Below, piece by piece: positions 391-5,482 of a DNA stretch of 64,000 nt. This DNA is from Chloroflexota bacterium (GTDB lineage: Bacteria; Chloroflexota; UBA11872; VXOZ01). Both the position numbers and the translations under genes were made by a program. The notes under the pieces are model-generated. The model saw nothing but the letters and a program-made list of their open reading frames with translations, made no database searches and was not told where the DNA came from. Location: assembly GCA_965220175.1 (NCBI GenBank), contig OZ244814.1:1952390-2016389 (forward strand), written 5' to 3'. Every line of letters starts with the position of its first letter. The first letter of the stretch is position 1.

Positions 391-1677
391 TTGTATCCAA
401 TGTCTTTAAAACGACCGATTGAATTTGGAACGACCTTTGACAGCTTTACTGCCACCAAGATTATTGGGGAAGGTGGTGCTGCACGTGTCTTCAAGGCAAC
501 CGATGGTGATGGAAAACTATGCGCTGTCAAATTGCTTAAGCCACAGAATGCAACCAAAGAGAAACGTAAAAGATTCAAGAATGAGATAGACTTCTGCTCT
601 CGCATCAACCACAAGAACATAGTTTTGGTTGATGACCACGGTAGACATTCTGAAGGCGAGAGTGAAACTATCTTCTACGTCATGCCCCTCTACTCTGGAT
701 CATTCAGGGATGTCTTGAATCAAGGTGTGCTGCCCGACAAGGCACTAGTCCACTTTGTGCAGATGTTGGACGGCGTTGAAGCGGCCCACCTAAAAGGTGT
801 GGTCCACCGAGACCTAAAGCCGGAAAACATACTGTTTGACGACGCAAACGACCAGCTTGTCATCTCGGACTTTGGCATAGCGATGTTCCAAGAAAATGAG
901 CTATTCACAGCAGTTGAAACCAAAGACACTGACCGCCTCGCAAACTTCCGATACGCAGCTCCTGAGCAGCGTCATCCTGGTAAGAGCGTCGACCAACGTG
1001 CAGACATCTTTGCTTTGGGGCTAATTCTAAATGAGATGTTCACGGAGGAGGTCGTGTCTGGAATTGGTTACACGACCATCGCTAGCGTGGATCAGGAGTA
1101 TGGTTTTCTGGATGAAATCGTAGAAAAGATGATCCAACAAGATCCCCGTGCCCGTTTCTCGTCCATTGGAGAAATCAAGGTTAGGATCAGCGCCAGTCAA
1201 AAGACCTTCGTTTCCCAGCAAAAGATAAGTGAGCTCAGTGGCGAAGTGGTGCCCGAAAACGAAATAGACGATCCTTTAGTGTCCGAACCTCCTAGGCTTG
1301 TAGATGTCGACTGGAATGAGGGTCGCTTGATTCTGTACTTGAGTTGCTCTGTTAATGATGATTGGGTCCAGGCGCTGCGAAACCCCGAAGTGGGTGGTAC
1401 TGTTGGAATAAACCACGGAGGGATAGAAATGGGTCTTTCAACCCTCAGTGTATTTGAGAACGTCGTTTCAACTAGAGCACCCGATGATGAGAGGACAATT
1501 CAAGATGTCATTAATCTGATGAGAGATGAGTGGTTGCCCAACGCTAATAGGGCCTATAGGAGTCGAAAAGAGACTGAGCAAAGGCAAAGGGAAGAGCGCA
1601 TTCGCGCAAGCCTCCAGAAACAGTTAGAGATGGAGAAGGCGCGCAAGAAGATTCTCGACAATGTTAGCATAGGCTAG
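391..1677 (+). CDS. Hanks-type Ser/Thr protein kinase with unknown C-terminal domain
   Basis: IGEGGAARV, AVKLL, HRDLKPEN, DFG and APE motifs; no TM segment; visibly AT-richer than flanks. Confidence 0.92.
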   Translation: MYPMSLKRPIEFGTTFDSFTATKIIGEGGAARVFKATDGDGKLCAVKLLKPQNATKEKRKRFKNEIDFCSRINHKNIVLVDDHGRHSEGESETIFYVMPLYSGSFRDVLNQGVLPDKALVHFVQMLDGVEAAHLKGVVHRDLKPENILFDDANDQLVISDFGIAMFQENELFTAVETKDTDRLANFRYAAPEQRHPGKSVDQRADIFALGLILNEMFTEEVVSGIGYTTIASVDQEYGFLDEIVEKMIQQDPRARFSSIGEIKVRISASQKTFVSQQKISELSGEVVPENEIDDPLVSEPPRLVDVDWNEGRLILYLSCSVNDDWVQALRNPEVGGTVGINHGGIEMGLSTLSVFENVVSTRAPDDERTIQDVINLMRDEWLPNANRAYRSRKETEQRQREERIRASLQKQLEMEKARKKILDNVSIG

Positions 1678-1754: not shown

Positions 1755-2561
1755 ATGGATTTTAGTAAACGAGAATGGTCACCTCAGGATTGTTCGGCTG
1801 GCACTCACTTAGTGCGAGATGTTTCCACTCCTCTTGAAAGACGGCATGGCAACTATGCGCTGCGTTTTATGATGGATGTGAGCGTGCCGCATGTTGCCCG
1901 TATAGCAGGGGCACGGAAGCCCCGATCCTATCGTCACGGCAGGTCTGCAGTCGGTCGGGCAGGAGCGCCCGATGGCCGACAGGTTGGCAGGACTAATGGA
2001 GACTACCCGCCGGACGTGCGGCGGATGGTCTTCTGGGATACGGAGACGACCGGTCTGGGTGGGCCGGGTACGTATGTCTTTTTGGTGGGTCTGGGATACT
2101 TGGAGGATGACGCGTTCGTGGTGCGGCAGCACTTTATCCGCAGTCCCGACGAAGAGCCTGCCATGCTGCAGGCGGTAGCGGATTCCCTCCCCCAATGGCC
2201 GACGATGACCACGTTCAACGGCGTGAGTTTCGATCTGCCGCTGCTGCGCTCCCGCATGAAGGCTCATGAAGTAAAGCTTGGCATTCAGGACGTCCTCCAT
2301 TGCGATCTGCTCTACGGCGCGCGGCGCCTTTGGCAACGGCGGTTGCCGAATTGCAGATTGCAGACACTTGAGAAGCACATTCTCGAGTTCGAGCGGCAAG
2401 GCGACGTGCCTTCCAGCGCAGTCCCAGGCCTCTATTTCGACTACCTTAAGACCGGTGACCTCGAGTCCTTGGATGGCGTCTTCCATCACAATGTACTCGA
2501 CATAATCTCGCTCGCCGGTCTCATGATCGCGATGCACGAGCAGGTAGTGGATGCGGGCTGA
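1755..2561 (+). CDS. YprB-like RNase H-fold (DnaQ/PolB-like) exonuclease
   Basis: FWDTETTGL, TFNGVSFDLPLL, HCDLL, HNVLDI motifs; true start uncertain. Confidence 0.85.
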   Translation: MDFSKREWSPQDCSAGTHLVRDVSTPLERRHGNYALRFMMDVSVPHVARIAGARKPRSYRHGRSAVGRAGAPDGRQVGRTNGDYPPDVRRMVFWDTETTGLGGPGTYVFLVGLGYLEDDAFVVRQHFIRSPDEEPAMLQAVADSLPQWPTMTTFNGVSFDLPLLRSRMKAHEVKLGIQDVLHCDLLYGARRLWQRRLPNCRLQTLEKHILEFERQGDVPSSAVPGLYFDYLKTGDLESLDGVFHHNVLDIISLAGLMIAMHEQVVDAG

Positions 2562-2689
2562 GCTTAGCGTGGGTGGATGCTCGCTAGACCCTCCCTGCAA
2601 TTGCGAGTACGGCACTTACCCTTCTCCGAGTTCATTCTCATCAAGAGAGCGCCCAGCCTCTGCTTGAATCTCGGCAAAATTGGCATTCC

Positions 2690-2712
2690 CTGGATTCCGG
2701 CTTTCGCCGGAG
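2690..2712 (+). repeat. REP-like hairpin (left part), split by IS110; remainder at 3899-3907
   Basis: Rejoining flanks gives CTGGATTCCGGC-TTTC-GCCGGAATGACGG with a perfect 8-bp stem. Confidence 0.8.
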
Positions 2713-2737
2713 TATCTGTGTTAGAAGTCAAGTTAAT

Positions 2738-3679
2738 TTAGGGACCTGCAGCAAGGTAGTCCTGCCACGGTGTGCCGCGCCGGACGATGGCGTTGAGTTG
2801 CAGGAGCATTTTGCGCATTACCGCCACCAGGGCGACTTTGCCCGGCTTACCCCGCTGGCGCAGACCTTGGTAGAAGCGCTGCAGGCTGTTGTCCTGGCGG
2901 ATAGCAGACAAGGCGGCGAGGTAGAGAGCGCGGCGCACGACGCCCCGGCCGCCGCGGATGGCGCGATAGCCGCGCTGCTGTCCGCTGTCCCGTGACCACG
3001 GTGCGAGACCTGCCAGCGCGGTCAAGGCCTTACCGGAGAGCTGACCGAGTTCGGGGAGGAAGGCGGTGAGGATGGCGGCGGTCAAGTCGCCGACGCCGCG
3101 CATGCTGCCGAGCAGTTGGGCGCGCTGGCGCAGGTGCTGGCTGCGCTGCAGGGTCGCTTGATACTGCTGGTCCAGCCGTTCTATCTCCTTATCCAGCCAG
3201 CGGATGTGGCGTGTGACGGAGCATTGGCTAACGGAGGAGAGGCCTTTGTCCAGACGGTTCTGTTCCTGCACACGTTGCTTGACGAGTTGCTGGCGGCGCT
3301 GCAGCACATCTTGGAGCTGTTCACGTTCCGGGGAGGGCGCCGGAAGGTCCTCCAGCGCCATCACAGCGCCGTACCGGGCGAGCACCTGCGCATCCAGGCG
3401 ATCGGTCTTCGCTTCCTTGCCACAGGCGCGGGCAAAGGCCCGCACCTTGTTGGGATGCGCCACCTCCACTGAGGGCAGCGCCGTGTGCAGACGCTTTACC
3501 ACTTGGCGCTCATACCCGCCGGTCGGCTCACACACTGCCACCGTGACGCCTGCAGCTTGCAGCCAACGCACCAGGGCGGTGATACCCACCGTGGTGTTCG
3601 CGAAACGCCGCACGGGGCCGCCCGCTACCGACACATCGAGTTGCGCTTTCCCAACATCGATCCCTGCCACAACTTTCAT
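2738..3679 (-). CDS. IS110 family DEDD recombinase/transposase
   Basis: GIDVGK, CEPTGGY, AKTDRLDA, GLAPWSRDSG motifs; ATG at 3679 preceded by AGGAGAG (ORF-track start 3814 runs into the ncRNA). Confidence 0.95.
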   Translation of the reverse strand: MKVVAGIDVGKAQLDVSVAGGPVRRFANTTVGITALVRWLQAAGVTVAVCEPTGGYERQVVKRLHTALPSVEVAHPNKVRAFARACGKEAKTDRLDAQVLARYGAVMALEDLPAPSPEREQLQDVLQRRQQLVKQRVQEQNRLDKGLSSVSQCSVTRHIRWLDKEIERLDQQYQATLQRSQHLRQRAQLLGSMRGVGDLTAAILTAFLPELGQLSGKALTALAGLAPWSRDSGQQRGYRAIRGGRGVVRRALYLAALSAIRQDNSLQRFYQGLRQRGKPGKVALVAVMRKMLLQLNAIVRRGTPWQDYLAAGP

Positions 3680-3689
3680 CCCGCTCTCC

Positions 3690-3885
3690 TTCCTGGCATA
3701 CTGGTGGTGTCCTCCACACTTGCAGATGCGGGCCATTGGTCTGCCCAGGTATCTGTTCGGAGCGACATTCTGGCGCGAGGGGTGTCGTACTCCGGCGCGA
3801 TGCAGCCAGGCCACTGCCTCGGCTCACCTAATGACGGACGACGCGCCCCTCGCGTTGCCACTCAACTTCGCTCATTTGCCCGCCT
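3690..3885 (-). ncRNA. Bridge RNA of the IS110 element
   Basis: Four guide segments matching target flanks and element ends in the order LTG, RTG, LDG, RDG, enclosed by stems; ends approximate. Confidence 0.85.
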
Positions 3886-3890
3886 TTTTC

Positions 3891-3896
3891 AACATA
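3891..3896 (-). promoter_or_regulatory. -10 half (TATGTT) of IS circle-junction promoter; -35 (TTGACT) at 2726-2731
   Basis: Joining the element ends gives TTGACT-N17-TATGTT pointing into the bridge RNA and transposase. Confidence 0.75.
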
Positions 3897-4054
3897 CAAA
3901 TGACGGAGCGTGGGTCCACGCCGTTCGTGAAGGGGAAGGAAAGTTCCAGGCTTGACTACGTCCCTATTGCGGACTAGAGTTAGGTTAGCAGGAGCCGAGG
4001 GTGGGCTCCCAATCTATGAGCAGAAGCTATCTGCTCTCACAAGAGGAGACTGAG

Positions 4055-5482
4055 ATGCGTGCAGAGCTAGAAGAAGGATCTGTTACCGGACTTACGCGCC
4101 GCAACCTGCTGGCCGGTATCGGCATTGGCGGGCTGGGTGTGACCATTCTGGCGGCTTGCGGCACTGCCACGATGACTATGGAAGGTGAGCCCGAAGCCAA
4201 GGAGGAAATGGCGGAAGAGAAGCAGGCGGAAGAGGCTCCCGCAGCCGAGGAAGTGACGATCCGCTATTACTCCTGGTTTTCGGAGCGAGACCTGGGCAAT
4301 GTGGAAGACGTCATGCTGAATCCGTTTGCCGAGGCGAACCCGGGGGCTACCGTGGAGCTCGTCGTTGCCCCTGGCAGCCTGGTTGGACAGGGCATCGAGT
4401 TGACAACCATGTTGGCCGGCGGTGTGCTGGTCGACTGTTTCATGTGCCTGGCGCCGCCGTTGTACGTGCGCAACGGTCTCGTGCAGCCGCTCGATGACCT
4501 CATCAAGCGCGACAACTACGACATGACGCAATTCGCCAGAGACGGCCGCACGACGTTCTCCTCGTTCGAGGGCAAAGTCTACGGTCTGACCACCTACCAT
4601 CACGGCGAGGCGATTGCGCTGCTCTACAACCGGCAGCTCTTTACCGACGCCGGTGTCGATGAACCTTCAGAGGACTGGGACAACTCATGGACGTGGGACG
4701 AGTTCCGCGACACCATGCAGCAACTCACCAAGGAATCCGGCGGCAAGTACACCCAGTACGGCCTGGACCGGGTTGGCATCAACTACTATCCCAATACGCC
4801 CATGCTCTGGGAGGGCGCGTGGATTTCGGATGACTTCCAGTCCATCACCTGCGATTCGCCGGAAGTGATCGAAGCGTACGAGTCCTACATCGCGCTGCAG
4901 CTTCAGGATAGGTCCTGGCCCTCGCGCGACCAGGCCAACGAGAATCTGGGCGAGCCGCAGCGCGGCTTCACCCACTTTACGTTGGGTAAGACCGGCGTGA
5001 TCAAGATGGGGTCCTGGCAGCTTGGCGGTTACCGTGACACGACGGATATCGACTGGGCGTTCACGCCCTTCCCGAAGGCCGCGGTCTCGCTGCCCGAATT
5101 CAAGATTTGGGGCTATGGTGTCGGCACACAGTCCAAGGCAACTGACGTGGCCTGGGAGTTTGTGAAATTCCACATTCCCGAAGACCGGTGGGCGTTGCTT
5201 ACCAGCAACATCCCGGCACGGTTGGAAGGCGCGGAGAAGTTCCTGCGCGATCTGTATGAAGAGCGACCGGGTGTGCGCGTGGATGCTTTCATCAACTCGC
5301 TCCCGCTCGGCGGCAACGGCGGCGACCCCGTGCTCGTTACTTCGGCGTGGCCGCGGATGCTCGAGGAAGCGGTCAGGCCGCTCTGGAGCGACATGATCGC
5401 CGGTACGGTGGCCCCGGCCGATGGTCTCAAGAATGTCAAGCCGATTTTGGAGAACATCTTGGCGGAAGAGGCAGCCAAGTAA
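4055..5482 (+). CDS. ABC transporter extracellular solute-binding lipoprotein (carbohydrate family 1), Tat-type signal
   Basis: TRRNLL twin-Arg, LAAC lipobox, LLYNRQLF..AGV and WTWDEF motifs; ATG 4055 after GAGGAG. Confidence 0.88.
   Translation: MRAELEEGSVTGLTRRNLLAGIGIGGLGVTILAACGTATMTMEGEPEAKEEMAEEKQAEEAPAAEEVTIRYYSWFSERDLGNVEDVMLNPFAEANPGATVELVVAPGSLVGQGIELTTMLAGGVLVDCFMCLAPPLYVRNGLVQPLDDLIKRDNYDMTQFARDGRTTFSSFEGKVYGLTTYHHGEAIALLYNRQLFTDAGVDEPSEDWDNSWTWDEFRDTMQQLTKESGGKYTQYGLDRVGINYYPNTPMLWEGAWISDDFQSITCDSPEVIEAYESYIALQLQDRSWPSRDQANENLGEPQRGFTHFTLGKTGVIKMGSWQLGGYRDTTDIDWAFTPFPKAAVSLPEFKIWGYGVGTQSKATDVAWEFVKFHIPEDRWALLTSNIPARLEGAEKFLRDLYEERPGVRVDAFINSLPLGGNGGDPVLVTSAWPRMLEEAVRPLWSDMIAGTVAPADGLKNVKPILENILAEEAAK

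What the first reader, a model, noticed from the sequence alone, without database searches (positions are those of the whole stretch)
3690..3885. IS110 bridge RNA with all four DNA-guide segments readable against its own insertion site
Seen: on the transposase (minus) strand the non-coding end carries, 5' to 3', four segments. UCCGUCAUU (3838-3830) is a 9/9 match to the flank at 3899-3907. CGCCGGAGUA (3797-3788) equals plus-strand 2705-2714, so it pairs with the opposite strand of the other flank. ACAGAUAC (3756-3749) is identical to the element end 2712-2719. UGCAAGU (3724-3718) pairs with the circle junction ACTTGTA with one G-T wobble. The first pair is closed by a stem (3774-3788 with 3838-3854) and the second by TGTC-CTCC/GGAG-CGACA. 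Known: this is the LTG-RTG-LDG-RDG layout of the IS621 bridge RNA. Inference: an intact programmable RNA-guided recombinase with target TCCGTCA-TT-CCGG and donor ACAGATA-CT-TGTA, from a lineage far from E. coli.
Basis: partly seen in the sequence, partly recalled or inferred. Interest (0 to 1): 0.92.

Follow-up and report, generated by a model that had tools for sequence, protein, structure and literature searches.

The report
IS110 element with canonical bridge RNA
This is an intact, multi-copy IS110-family insertion sequence whose upstream non-coding RNA has the two-loop "bridge RNA" layout already described for IS621, with guide segments that match its own insertion site and its own ends, so it is a genuine but ordinary new member of a known class.

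Summary
Window 2711-3898 (minus strand) is a 1188-bp IS110-group element: six identical copies plus one copy at 79% identity in this genome. It encodes a 314-aa DEDD/Ser recombinase related to IS621 and ISCro4. The 216-nt leader carries all four guide segments at the stated coordinates.

Across 27 homologous leaders the guides lie in the two internal loops of a covariation-supported fold. The target guides covary with flanking DNA: 231 of 286 positions match, against 136 when guides are permuted, with 0 of 20000 permutations as high. A covariance model built only from other genomes hits window 3854-3709 at 134 bits.

The target is a REP-like hairpin with core TT; the donor core is CT. Handshake dinucleotides and a junction promoter are also present.

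Expression and activity are untested: no RNA run is listed. This is a new member of a known kind, so novelty is low.

A side observation may be new. Solo 78-bp left-end stubs end exactly at the DNA that encodes the left target guide, in two genomes.

The parts
3899..3907 (-). Left target half plus core (TCCGTCA-TT), target positions 1-9. It is flanking DNA, not part of the element.
   Evidence: The same 9-mer precedes TGTATG in 6 of 7 copies in this genome; the seventh has one mismatch. It is identical to the LTG.
2711..3898 (-). IS110-group insertion sequence, 1188 bp, from TGTATG... to ...ACAGATA-CT.
   Evidence: Six copies at 100% identity and one at 79% in the genome. The boundaries are set by where the copies stop being alike and by the empty REP sites.
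3894..3898 (-). Right donor half (TGTAT), donor positions 10-14.
   Evidence: TGTATG is invariant in 27 of 27 aligned leaders.
3891..3896 (-). -10-like hexamer TATGTT of the junction promoter.
   Evidence: It lies 17 nt from TTGACT once the right and left ends are joined. Junction promoters are described for IS621.
3709..3854 (-). Bridge RNA core: target-binding loop module plus donor-binding loop module.
   Evidence: Covariance model R1, built from 24 homologs of other genomes, matches here at 134.3 bits, E 1.2e-23, over its full length 1-144.
3840..3854 (-). Target-binding loop, outer stem, 5' strand.
   Evidence: It pairs with 3786-3774. Seven of these 12 pairs show compensatory changes.
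3830..3838 (-). Left target guide (LTG), UCCGUCAUU, on the 5' side of the first internal loop.
   Evidence: 9 of 9 identical to the left flank. It covaries with the flank across homologs.
3799..3828 (-). Target-binding loop, inner hairpin.
   Evidence: Six of 9 pairs show compensatory changes.
3790..3797 (-). Right target guide (RTG), CGCCGGAG, on the 3' side of the first internal loop.
   Evidence: It is complementary to CT-CCGGCG at the right junction and covaries with right flanks. The 79% copy has TACGGGAG next to a CT-CCCGTG flank.
3788..3789 (-). Target-loop handshake dinucleotide, UA.
   Evidence: It is complementary to donor positions 6-7 (TA). Its position, just 3' of the RTG, is as in IS621. 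AGT is invariant in 27 of 27 leaders.
3774..3786 (-). Target-binding loop, outer stem, 3' strand.
3759..3766 (-). Donor-binding loop, outer stem, 5' strand (GUCGCUCC).
   Evidence: It pairs with 3715-3709; 97% of cells are paired, but most pairs never vary.
3749..3756 (-). Left donor guide (LDG), ACAGAUAC.
   Evidence: 8 of 8 identical to the right end plus the first core base. The A/G state at guide position 3 tracks the right end in homologs.
3730..3746 (-). Donor-binding loop, inner hairpin (GGGC...GCCC).
   Evidence: 100% of cells are paired; 1 of 4 pairs is compensatory.
3719..3727 (-). Right donor guide (RDG), AU-(CU)-GCAAG.
   Evidence: CAAG pairs with CTTG, there is a G.T pair at donor T12, and AU pairs with A13-T14. 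This is the same discontiguous scheme with a G.T pair as in IS621. AU is invariant in 27 of 27 leaders.
3717..3718 (-). Donor-loop handshake dinucleotide, UG.
   Evidence: It is complementary to target positions 6-7 (CA). Its position is as in IS621.
3709..3715 (-). Donor-binding loop, outer stem, 3' strand (GGAGGAC).
2738..3682 (-). Recombinase gene, 314 aa, preceded by GGAGAG.
   Evidence: Pfam DEDD_Tnp_IS110 at 1.1e-21 and Transposase_20 at 2.9e-15. IS621 chain 8wt6 matches at 2.9e-38 and ISCro4 chain 9t56 at 1.3e-39; the catalytic residues are aligned.
2726..2731 (-). -35 hexamer TTGACT in the right end.
   Evidence: My scan anchored on TTGAC found the right end in 81 of 87 loci.
2711..2719 (-). 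Left donor half plus core (ACAGATA-CT), donor positions 1-9.
2688..2710 (-). Right target half (CCGGCG) and the rest of the REP-like hairpin (CCGGCG-AAA-GCCGGAAT-CCAGGG). It is flanking DNA.
   Evidence: This stretch recurs at many places in the genome. It belongs to a REP-like family.

Best explanation
The region is the left end of an IS110-group insertion sequence and encodes an IS621-type bridge RNA.

Inferred life cycle, by analogy with IS621. After excision, the joined right and left ends form a promoter (TTGACT, 17 nt, TATGTT) that transcribes the leader. The RNA folds into two stem-enclosed internal loops.

The first loop reads the target, a REP-like hairpin site TCCGTCA-TT-CCGGCG. [quoted passage not shown] The second loop reads the circle junction ACAGATA-CT-TGTAT in the same way (LDG 8 nt; RDG discontiguous with one G.T pair).

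Two bases 3' of each right guide (UA and UG) are handshake guides. They pair with positions 6-7 of the partner DNA after top-strand exchange.

The 314-aa DEDD/Ser recombinase then exchanges strands 3' of the core. The left junction keeps the target's TT and the right junction keeps the donor's CT.

What is shown here: the sequence matches, the fold with covariation, guide-flank covariation, the copy number and the conserved catalytic residues. What is inferred: transcription, RNA-protein binding, the chemistry and the order of steps.
For: Recombinase.
- Pfam finds both IS110 domains.
- The protein matches IS621 and ISCro4 chains at about 1e-38 to 1e-39. D9, E52, D94, D97 and S233 align to chain residues 13, 62, 104, 107 and 243. 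These are IS621 D11, E60, D102, D105 and S241 if the deposited chain carries two extra N-terminal residues.

Copies.
- Six copies are 100% identical and one is 79% identical. All seven have the junctions ...CATT|TGTATG and ACAGATACT|CC....

Guides in the window.
- The matches are 9 of 9, 10 of 10 and 8 of 8. They occurred in 2, 11 and 51 of 20000 shuffles.

Fold.
- RNAalifold on 27 leaders places the guides in internal loops; 25 of 43 pairs have compensatory changes.
- For a stated structure on 24 leaders from other genomes, 96.2% of cells are paired and 15 of 32 pairs are compensatory. No shuffle of 500 reached this, and sliding the partners dropped pairing to 41-51%.
- Model R1, built without the window, hits 3854-3709 at 134.3 bits and E 1.2e-23. 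It is the only hit in the 64 kb.

Guide-flank covariation.
- There are 68 unique insertion events from 80 usable loci and 22 guide types.
- Taking one event per guide type, 231 of 286 non-core positions match, against a permuted mean of 136 (sd 11). No permutation of 20000 was as high.
- Non-REP targets are included, for example LTG TCCACAACT with flank TCCACAACT, and RTG TTCAGAAG with flank CTTCTGAT.
- Inside this genome, the 79% copy has a changed RTG that matches a different REP subfamily.

Core.
- The LTG core guide equals the left-junction core in 66 of 69 unique events (TT/TT 52, CT/CT 14).
- The RTG core guide is AG in all 68 events where the RTG was found, and the right-junction core is CT in 68 of 69 events.
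- Among empty REP sites of the CCGGCG subfamily, a TT core goes with a GGAAT arm in 34 of 34 cases, and CT with GGAGT in 26 of 28. The four copies with a readable 3' arm all have an A-type arm (three GGAAT, one GTAAT), so their targets had TT.

Mechanistic fit.
- IS621 cuts the top strand between positions 9 and 10 and places its handshake guides just 3' of the right guides.

Promoter.
- The junction promoter spacing is 17 nt.
Against: - No transcript evidence exists: no RNA run is listed for this sequence.
- No Rfam 15 family matched the region, even at E up to 10.
- The single-sequence minimum-energy fold is not exceptional (z -1.67; 14 of 200 shuffles fold as well). It pairs part of the LTG with part of the RTG and misses the donor-loop stem.
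- The donor-loop stems are almost invariant, so covariation says little about them: 8 of 11 pairs never vary.
- The ninth LDG base (C) does not match core T, and the RDG needs a G.T pair.
- Donor guides and element ends are inherited together, so their agreement is weaker evidence than the target-guide covariation.
- The 5' hairpin kept in most homologs aligns poorly in the window's subclade. This is my reading of the rows and was not quantified.
- Flanks of some homologs match their guides only partly. For example, the GTGACCGCT type has flanks with 4-7 of 9 matches.
Confidence: 0.9

Rival explanations
1. The element is a real IS110 with a bridge RNA by sequence, but it is no longer active in this genome. 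The six identical copies would then come from a recent burst or from duplications, and the RNA is no longer made or used.
For: There is no RNA evidence. No contig in four DNA runs joins across the element to show an empty site or a circle junction (contigs cannot show rare forms). Forty perfect TT-core targets remain unoccupied.
Against: The six copies are 100% identical over about 1.2 kb and sit in six different flanks. The reading frame is open, the catalytic residues are kept, and every guide still matches.
Confidence: 0.07
2. The leader is only a 5' untranslated or regulatory region. Its matches to the flanks arise because a fragment of the REP target was captured into the element, or because the ends carry protein-binding repeats. 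On this view there is no RNA guiding.
For: The target-loop guides look like a split REP unit. The minimum-energy fold of the single sequence is unremarkable.
Against: Homologs that sit in non-REP sites carry different loop sequences matching their own flanks on both sides. No permutation of 20000 reaches the observed agreement. The flanks are not part of the element, so shared descent cannot explain this. The stems around the loops show compensatory changes.
Confidence: 0.02
3. It belongs to the IS1111 / seekRNA branch, where the guide RNA lies in the right end, and the left-end matches are secondary.
For: None was found here beyond membership of the same IS110 family.
Against: The non-coding left end is 216 nt. 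The right end after the stop codon is 27 nt (2737-2711), too short for a guide RNA. The IS110 group is defined by a long left end holding the RNA.
Confidence: 0.01

Closest known systems
IS621 (E. coli) bridge RNA and recombinase: Durrant et al. 2024 (PMC11208160) and Hiraizumi et al. 2024 (PMC11208158). I read passages only.
   Same: - The RNA lies in the left end, upstream of a DEDD/Ser recombinase.
- There are two stem-enclosed internal loops.
- A 9-nt LTG sits on the 5' side and is identical to the top strand of the left target plus core. The RTG sits on the 3' side and is complementary to core plus right target.
- The donor loop is built the same way, with a discontiguous RDG and a G.T pair at donor T12.
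- Two-base handshake guides lie 3' of each right guide.
- The donor core is CT.
- A promoter is rebuilt across the joined ends.
- The target is a repeated extragenic palindrome.
   Different: - The protein similarity is distant: phmmer E 2.9e-38 over residues 6-306.
- The RTG is 8 nt including the core, against 4 in IS621. Durrant et al. note that some orthologs have a longer RTG.
- The natural target core is TT while the donor core is CT. The LTG reads UU, but the RTG keeps AG, which gives a G.T pair on the target.
- The 5' hairpin looks degenerate in this subclade.
- The host is probably Chloroflexota.
ISCro4 transposase (PDB 9t56)
   Same: It is the best solved-structure match, at E 1.3e-39, with the same domain order and catalytic motifs aligned.
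   Different: Only the protein was compared. I did not see its RNA or any paper on it.
ISPpu10 (Pseudomonas putida) and its target stem-loop: bioRxiv 10.64898/2026.03.19.712850. I read the abstract only.
   Same: It is an IS110 element whose insertions all fall in copies of one repeated intergenic sequence that forms a stem-loop.
   Different: In ISPpu10 the stem-loop is described as a GC-rich 5' extension acting as an extra specificity determinant. Here the hairpin overlaps the core and right target half and extends 3' of the site. Whether the structure matters here was not tested.
Half-match recombination and partial circles of IS110 elements: bioRxiv 10.64898/2026.08.31.748434 (abstract only) and 10.64898/2026.08.14.744561 (abstract and section 9).
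   Same: Both describe recombination that uses only one canonical half-site, and recurrent internal endpoints within IS110 loci. This is the closest described process to the left-end stubs noted in this report.
   Different: The passages I read do not tie an internal endpoint to the DNA that encodes the LTG. They also do not describe 78-bp chromosomal scars.

Membership tests
IS110 family, IS110 group (bridge recombinase) | Recombinase with an N-terminal DEDD RuvC-like domain and a C-terminal Tnp domain carrying the catalytic serine. | tested here: met
   PF01548 matches at 1.1e-21 and PF02371 at 2.9e-15. D9, E52, D94, D97 and S233 align with the IS621 catalytic residues and are invariant in 18 homologs.
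IS110 family, IS110 group (bridge recombinase) | Long non-coding left end and short right end, with no long terminal inverted repeats. | tested here: met
   The left end is 216 nt (3898-3683) and the right end after the stop codon is 27 nt (2737-2711). Inverted repeats were not searched for specifically.
IS621-type bridge RNA | Two internal loops, each closed by an outer stem and an inner hairpin, supported by covariation. | tested here: met
   96.2% of cells paired, 15 of 32 pairs compensatory, 0 of 500 shuffles as high. The donor-loop stems are nearly invariant, so most of the support comes from the target loop.
IS621-type bridge RNA | LTG on the 5' side equals the top strand of left target plus core. 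RTG on the 3' side is complementary to the top strand of core plus right target. | tested here: met
   Window matches are 9 of 9 and 8 of 8, or 10 of 10 with the handshake bases. Homologs match at 231 of 286 positions against a permuted 136, with 0 of 20000 permutations as high.
IS621-type bridge RNA | LDG and RDG match the joined right end and left end in the same strand arrangement. | tested here: met
   LDG matches 8 of 8. The RDG gives 6 Watson-Crick pairs plus one G.T pair in the discontiguous scheme. Covariation is limited: LDG position 3 against the right end gives A/A in 13 types, G/G in 7, G/A in 2 and A/G in 0. One further row is a mis-hit of my pattern and was set aside.
IS621-type bridge RNA | A shared CT core in target and donor, read by all four guides. 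| tested here: inconclusive
   The donor core is CT. The target core is TT in 52 of 69 unique events, where the LTG reads UU and the RTG keeps AG. IS621 tolerates TT, GT and AT cores when reprogrammed, so this is a variation rather than a failure.
IS621-type bridge RNA | Handshake dinucleotides 3' of the RTG and RDG, complementary to positions 6-7 of the partner DNA. | tested here: met
   UA (3789-3788) faces donor TA, and UG (3718-3717) faces target CA. The donor-loop UG is invariant even in homologs whose targets have other bases at positions 6-7.
IS621-type bridge RNA | A sigma-70-like promoter rebuilt across the joined ends. | tested here: met
   TTGACT, a 17-nt spacer, then TATGTT. This is a sequence-level result only.
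IS621-type bridge RNA | The RNA is expressed, binds the recombinase and directs recombination. | not testable with these tools
   No RNA run is listed.
Rfam family for bridge RNA | A match above the gathering score. | tested here: not met
   There is no match in 2500-4200 at E up to 10, apart from three chance-level hits elsewhere. I cannot tell whether Rfam 15 holds such a family.

The most novel reading that the evidence does not exclude
The DNA that encodes the left target guide is, by construction, a copy of the left half of the target. I propose that the element's own recombinase-RNA complex sometimes uses this internal half-site together with the right-end junction (LD|RT). That would delete everything except the first 78 bp and recreate a full target.

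The solo left-end stubs would be scars of such self-directed partial excision. There are 7 in this genome and 10 in a second genome, about as many as or more than the full copies. Each ends exactly at the guide-coding 9-mer fused to a REP right half.

If so, this is an intrinsic decay route of bridge-RNA elements and a natural record of half-match recombination.
Probability: 0.3. Interest if true: 0.55.

Novelty: new member of a known kind. Interest (0 to 1): 0.33.

Why it matters
Bridge recombinases are being developed as programmable tools for DNA insertion, excision and inversion. This element adds a compact (314-aa), apparently recently active ortholog from a lineage far from the characterised ones.

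It comes with unusually rich natural data: 68 independent insertion events across 22 guide variants. These show which guide positions track the target. The LTG and a 6-nt non-core RTG covary with the target. The RTG core guide AG and both handshake dinucleotides stay nearly fixed.

The data also show that in nature a TT target core is routinely recombined with a CT donor core. The left junction always keeps the target core and the right junction the donor core. This is the outcome expected from top-strand exchange 3' of the core.

None of this changes the known mechanism. The left-end stubs, if they are recombinase-made, would matter for understanding off-target and self-directed reactions.

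Tried and rejected
- Rfam 15 scan of 2500-4200 at E up to 10: nothing in the leader, and three chance-level hits elsewhere.
- Single-sequence RNA fold: z -1.67. The target-loop stem was found but the donor-loop stem was not. I relied on comparative folds instead.
- Sequencing runs: no RNA holder is listed.
- Laying contigs of four DNA runs on 2300-4300. Contigs break at the element's ends, as expected for a repeat. No contig joins across the element and no circle junction was seen. Two small joints (2732-2811 and 3539-3743) have short sides of 24-26 letters and were not interpreted. Contigs cannot show rare forms, so this says nothing either way.
- The first table (REP units with a perfect 6-bp stem) printed no rows; I did not work out why. 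I used the second table (CCGGCG subfamily) instead.
- In one search, one LDG row (the L094 type) is a mis-hit of my pattern and was set aside.
- In some searches, 7 of 87 loci were not usable. Their left end, RTG or right end was not found by my patterns: L068 has no left end, L044 has an internal deletion, and L046, L047, L057, L088 and L097 have no right-end match or a cut contig. Twelve loci with the same flanks as another locus were then dropped as non-independent, which leaves 68 events.
- I considered that the left TT / right CT asymmetry was anomalous. I rejected this after reading that IS621 exchanges top strands between positions 9 and 10, which predicts exactly this outcome.
- I considered that the stubs are a self-amplifying miniature element. 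Each stub is as close or closer to one of the two IS variants (72-92%) than to any other stub (62-88%), which argues for separate origins. Deletion by 9-bp microhomology with a downstream REP gives the same product and is not excluded.
- Literature: a search for 'bridge RNA' together with 'Chloroflex' found 1 paper, in which the two terms are unrelated. An earlier, looser search was uninformative. The ortholog tables of Durrant et al. could show that this family was already in their set.
Full report
WHAT IS THERE

On the minus strand of the window, a 314-aa open frame runs from ATG 3682 to the stop codon at 2738-2740. The longer 358-aa frame that starts at GTG 3814 is a mechanical extension through the leader. 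The protein has both Pfam domains of IS110 transposases: DEDD_Tnp_IS110 at 1.1e-21 and Transposase_20 at 2.9e-15. Its best solved-structure matches are the ISCro4 transposase (9t56, E 1.3e-39) and the IS621 transposase (8wt6, E 2.9e-38).

In the IS621 alignment, D9, E52, D94, D97 and S233 face chain residues 13, 62, 104, 107 and 243. These correspond to IS621 D11, E60, D102, D105 and S241, the catalytic set named, if the deposited chain has two extra N-terminal residues. All five offsets agree on that. The same residues are invariant in an alignment of 18 homologs.

COPIES AND BOUNDARIES

A search of the window's own 3.35-Mb genome with 2650-3960 found six copies at 100% identity and one at 79%. 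A protein search found the same seven and no other paralog.

All seven have the left junction ...CATT|TGTATG and the right junction ACAGATACT|CC.... The element is therefore 2711-3898, or 1188 bp. It is flanked on the left by TCCGTCATT; one copy has TCCGCCATT. It is flanked on the right by CCGGCG..., or CCCGTG... at the 79% copy.

The right flank continues as CCGGCG-AAA-GCCGGAAT-CCAGGG. That short stretch recurs at many places in the genome. A pattern scan found 222 sites of the form TCCGTCA-NN-CC, of which 134 have NN = TT and 51 have CT. This is a REP-like hairpin family. The genome holds 40 exact TCCGTCATTCCGGCG sites and 32 with CT in place of TT.

THE OBSERVATION

- UCCGUCAUU (3838-3830) equals the left flank.
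- CGCCGGAGUA (3797-3788) is complementary to TA-CT-CCGGCG at the right junction.
- ACAGAUAC (3756-3749) equals the right end.
- UGCAAGU (3724-3718) is complementary to A-CT-TGTA with one G.T pair.

In 20000 shuffles of the leader, the first three strings appeared 2, 11 and 51 times.

COMPARISON WITH THE PUBLISHED RULES

Durrant et al. (PMC11208160; passages) state the following.
[quoted passage not shown] - The core is included in all four pairings.
- Some orthologs have a longer RTG than IS621.

Hiraizumi et al. (PMC11208158; passages) add the following.
- The sites are 14 nt, with the core at positions 8-9.
- The top strand is cut between positions 9 and 10.
- Two-base handshake guides lie just 3' of the RTG and RDG and pair with positions 6-7 of the other DNA after exchange.
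- The RDG is discontiguous, with two flipped bases and a G.T pair at donor T12.
- TT, GT and AT cores can work.

The window fits every point.
- The LTG is 9 nt and identical to the top strand.
- The RTG is 8 nt and complementary.
- UA after the RTG faces donor TA at positions 6-7.
- UG after the RDG faces target CA at positions 6-7.
- In the RDG, CAAG pairs with core CT plus TG, G3723 faces T12, and A3727-U3726 can pair with T14-A13 if C3725-U3724 are flipped out.

The last point is supported by conservation. The A-U is invariant in 27 of 27 aligned leaders, while the one or two bases after it vary.

HOMOLOGS AND FOLD

The protein has thousands of relatives: 4466 at E up to 0.001 among the 8000 candidates scored, the best at 90% identity. 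A scan of one genome per species returned 80 loci, nearly all from records titled Chloroflexota or Dehalococcoidia and many multi-copy.

I aligned 27 distinct leaders. RNAalifold gave a 5' hairpin and then two modules, each with an outer stem, an internal loop and an inner hairpin. The four guide segments lie on the unpaired sides, and 25 of 43 pairs show compensatory changes.

I then wrote out a structure for 24 leaders from other genomes, leaving out the window and its two closest relatives.
- 96.2% of cells are paired.
- 15 of 32 pairs have compensatory changes.
- No shuffle of 500 reaches any of the five measures.
- Sliding the 3' partners by 1-3 columns drops pairing to 41-51%.

Most of the variation lies in the target-loop stems. 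The donor-loop stems are nearly invariant, so covariation says little about them.

A covariance model built from those 24 sequences hits the window once, at 3854-3709 on the minus strand. The score is 134.3 bits, E 1.2e-23, over the full model length.

By contrast, the single-sequence minimum-energy fold is unremarkable (z -1.67) and misses the donor-loop stem. Rfam 15 has no match.

GUIDE-FLANK COVARIATION

I used anchoring patterns to extract the guides and junctions from 87 loci: 80 fetched loci plus the 7 own copies. Of these, 80 were usable, giving 68 unique insertion events and 22 distinct LTG/RTG pairs.

Taking one event per guide type, 231 of 286 non-core positions match the cognate flank. 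Permuted guides give a mean of 136 (sd 11.3, maximum 195), and 0 of 20000 permutations reach the observed value.

Examples:
- LTG TCCACAACT with flank TCCACAACT, and RTG TTCAGAAG with flank CT-TCTGAT.
- LTG TAGGCAACT with flank CAGGCAACT, and RTG TCGAACAG with flank CT-GTTCGG.
- RTG GCTCGAAG with flank CT-TCGAGC.

Within this genome, the 79% copy keeps the LTG but has RTG TACGGGAG next to CT-CCCGTG.

The flanks are not part of the element, so common descent cannot produce this agreement. Some types match only partly. The GTGACCGCT type, for example, sits in flanks with 4-7 of 9 matches.

For the donor guides the signal is weaker, because guides and ends are inherited together. LDG position 3 against the right end gives A/A in 13 types, G/G in 7, G/A in 2 (a G.T pair with the bottom strand is possible) and A/G in none. 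One further row was a mis-hit of my pattern. Two types have T at LDG position 7 against A in the end. Durrant et al. describe position 7 as mismatch-tolerant.

THE CORE

One search gives these counts.
- The LTG's last two bases equal the left-junction core in 66 of 69 unique events (TT/TT 52, CT/CT 14).
- The RTG's core guide is AG in all 68 events where the RTG was found.
- The right-junction core is CT in 68 of 69 events.

Among empty sites of the CCGGCG subfamily, a TT core goes with a GGAAT 3' arm in 34 of 34 cases, and CT with GGAGT in 26 of 28. The four copies whose 3' arm is readable all have the A-type arm (three GGAAT, one GTAAT). Their targets therefore carried TT, and the right junction's C came from the donor.

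So the natural reaction joins a TT-core target to a CT-core donor. Positions 1-9 stay with their own left arm. That is what top-strand exchange between positions 9 and 10 predicts.

The fixed G in the RTG fits the reported contact of that base with the protein main chain. On a TT target it would form a G.T pair. This is a detail within the known mechanism, not a departure from it.

PROMOTER

Joining the right end to the left end places TTGACT (2731-2726) 17 nt upstream of TATGTT (3896-3891). TGTATG is invariant in the 27 aligned leaders. My scan anchored on TTGAC found the right end in 81 of 87 loci. Junction promoters that drive the RNA are described for IS621. This is sequence-level evidence only.

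WHAT IS NOT SHOWN

No RNA run holds the sequence. The four DNA runs are contigs that simply break at the element's ends. Transcription, binding and recombination are therefore inferred by homology.

A SIDE OBSERVATION

The first 78 bases of the query that begins at the left flank are the 9-nt flank plus 69 nt of left end, which ends with the LTG-coding 9-mer. This stretch matches seven further places in the genome at 74-86% identity. In all seven, the match stops at the LTG-coding 9-mer and continues directly into a REP right half, for example ...GCGCGTCG-TCCGTCAT-TCCCGCGAAAGCGGGAATCC.

A second genome, that of locus L038, has five full copies, two diverged or truncated copies, ten such stubs ending at the same position, and one irregular stub.

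Each stub is as close or closer to one of the two IS variants (72-92%) than to any other stub (62-88%). This argues for separate origins rather than a self-amplifying miniature element.

The LTG-coding DNA is necessarily a copy of the left half-target. One explanation is therefore recombination between this internal half-site and the right-end junction. This would be a natural case of the half-match or partial-circle reactions reported in two 2026 preprints (abstract; abstract and section 9). The passages I read do not link internal endpoints to guide-coding DNA. Deletion by 9-bp microhomology with a neighbouring REP would give the same product and is not excluded.

VERDICT

It is a new member of the IS621-type bridge RNA family, which has been described since 2024 and mined at scale. 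It is probably from a Chloroflexota genome. A library search for 'bridge RNA' with 'Chloroflex' found no paper on such elements in that phylum. The supplementary ortholog tables, which I could not open, may already include this family. Interest is modest.

Noticed in passing
G000 loci L008-L013 and L016 (genome positions about 455.7k, 1310.9k, 3099.2k, 1023.6k, 1248.3k, 3061.1k and 1122.0k); also G001 loci L125-L135: Solo 78-bp left-end stubs. Each has the left flank 9-mer, then the first 69 nt of the element ending with the LTG-coding 9-mer, fused directly to a REP right half. There are seven in this genome, and ten plus one irregular stub in a second genome, about as many as or more than the full copies. 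They may be scars of recombination at the guide-coding DNA, or microhomology deletions.
   Followed up: partly
Whole genome G000; for example window 2688-2712 and the flanks of all IS copies: A REP-like hairpin family, TCCGTCA-[TT or CT]-CC(G/C)G(C/T)G-loop-...GGA(A/G)T-CCA. The pattern TCCGTCA-NN-CC gives 222 hits. The first core base covaries with the 3' arm (TT with GGAAT 34 of 34; CT with GGAGT 26 of 28). The same repeat type flanks homologous elements in other Chloroflexota or Dehalococcoidia records.
   Followed up: partly
G000:C1:297077-298311 (locus L007): The 79%-identical sister copy keeps the same LTG but has a different RTG (TACGGGAG). It sits in a CCCGTG-type REP. This is natural retargeting of one half-guide within a single genome.
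   Followed up: yes
L044, upstream leader: One homolog copy has an internal deletion that joins the RTG region to the LDG region (...GAGCGG|ATACATGG...). This removes the 3' strand of the target-loop outer stem and the 5' strand of the donor-loop stem. It is presumably a defective bridge RNA.
   Followed up: no
L095, L102, L111, L114 and L115 (and L107, which has a repeated right end): Several copies in one Dehalococcoidia record share identical flanks on both sides, so the element there lies inside a larger repeated unit. L107 shows a right end followed by a second partial right end. These loci were treated as non-independent in the counts.
   Followed up: no
window 391-1677 (+) and 4001-5482 (+): The neighbouring open frames look like a Ser/Thr protein kinase (motifs HRDLKPEN and DFG in the translation) and a secreted solute-binding protein with a twin-arginine-like leader. 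This is read from the translations only. The element sits in the intergenic REP between unrelated genes.
   Followed up: no
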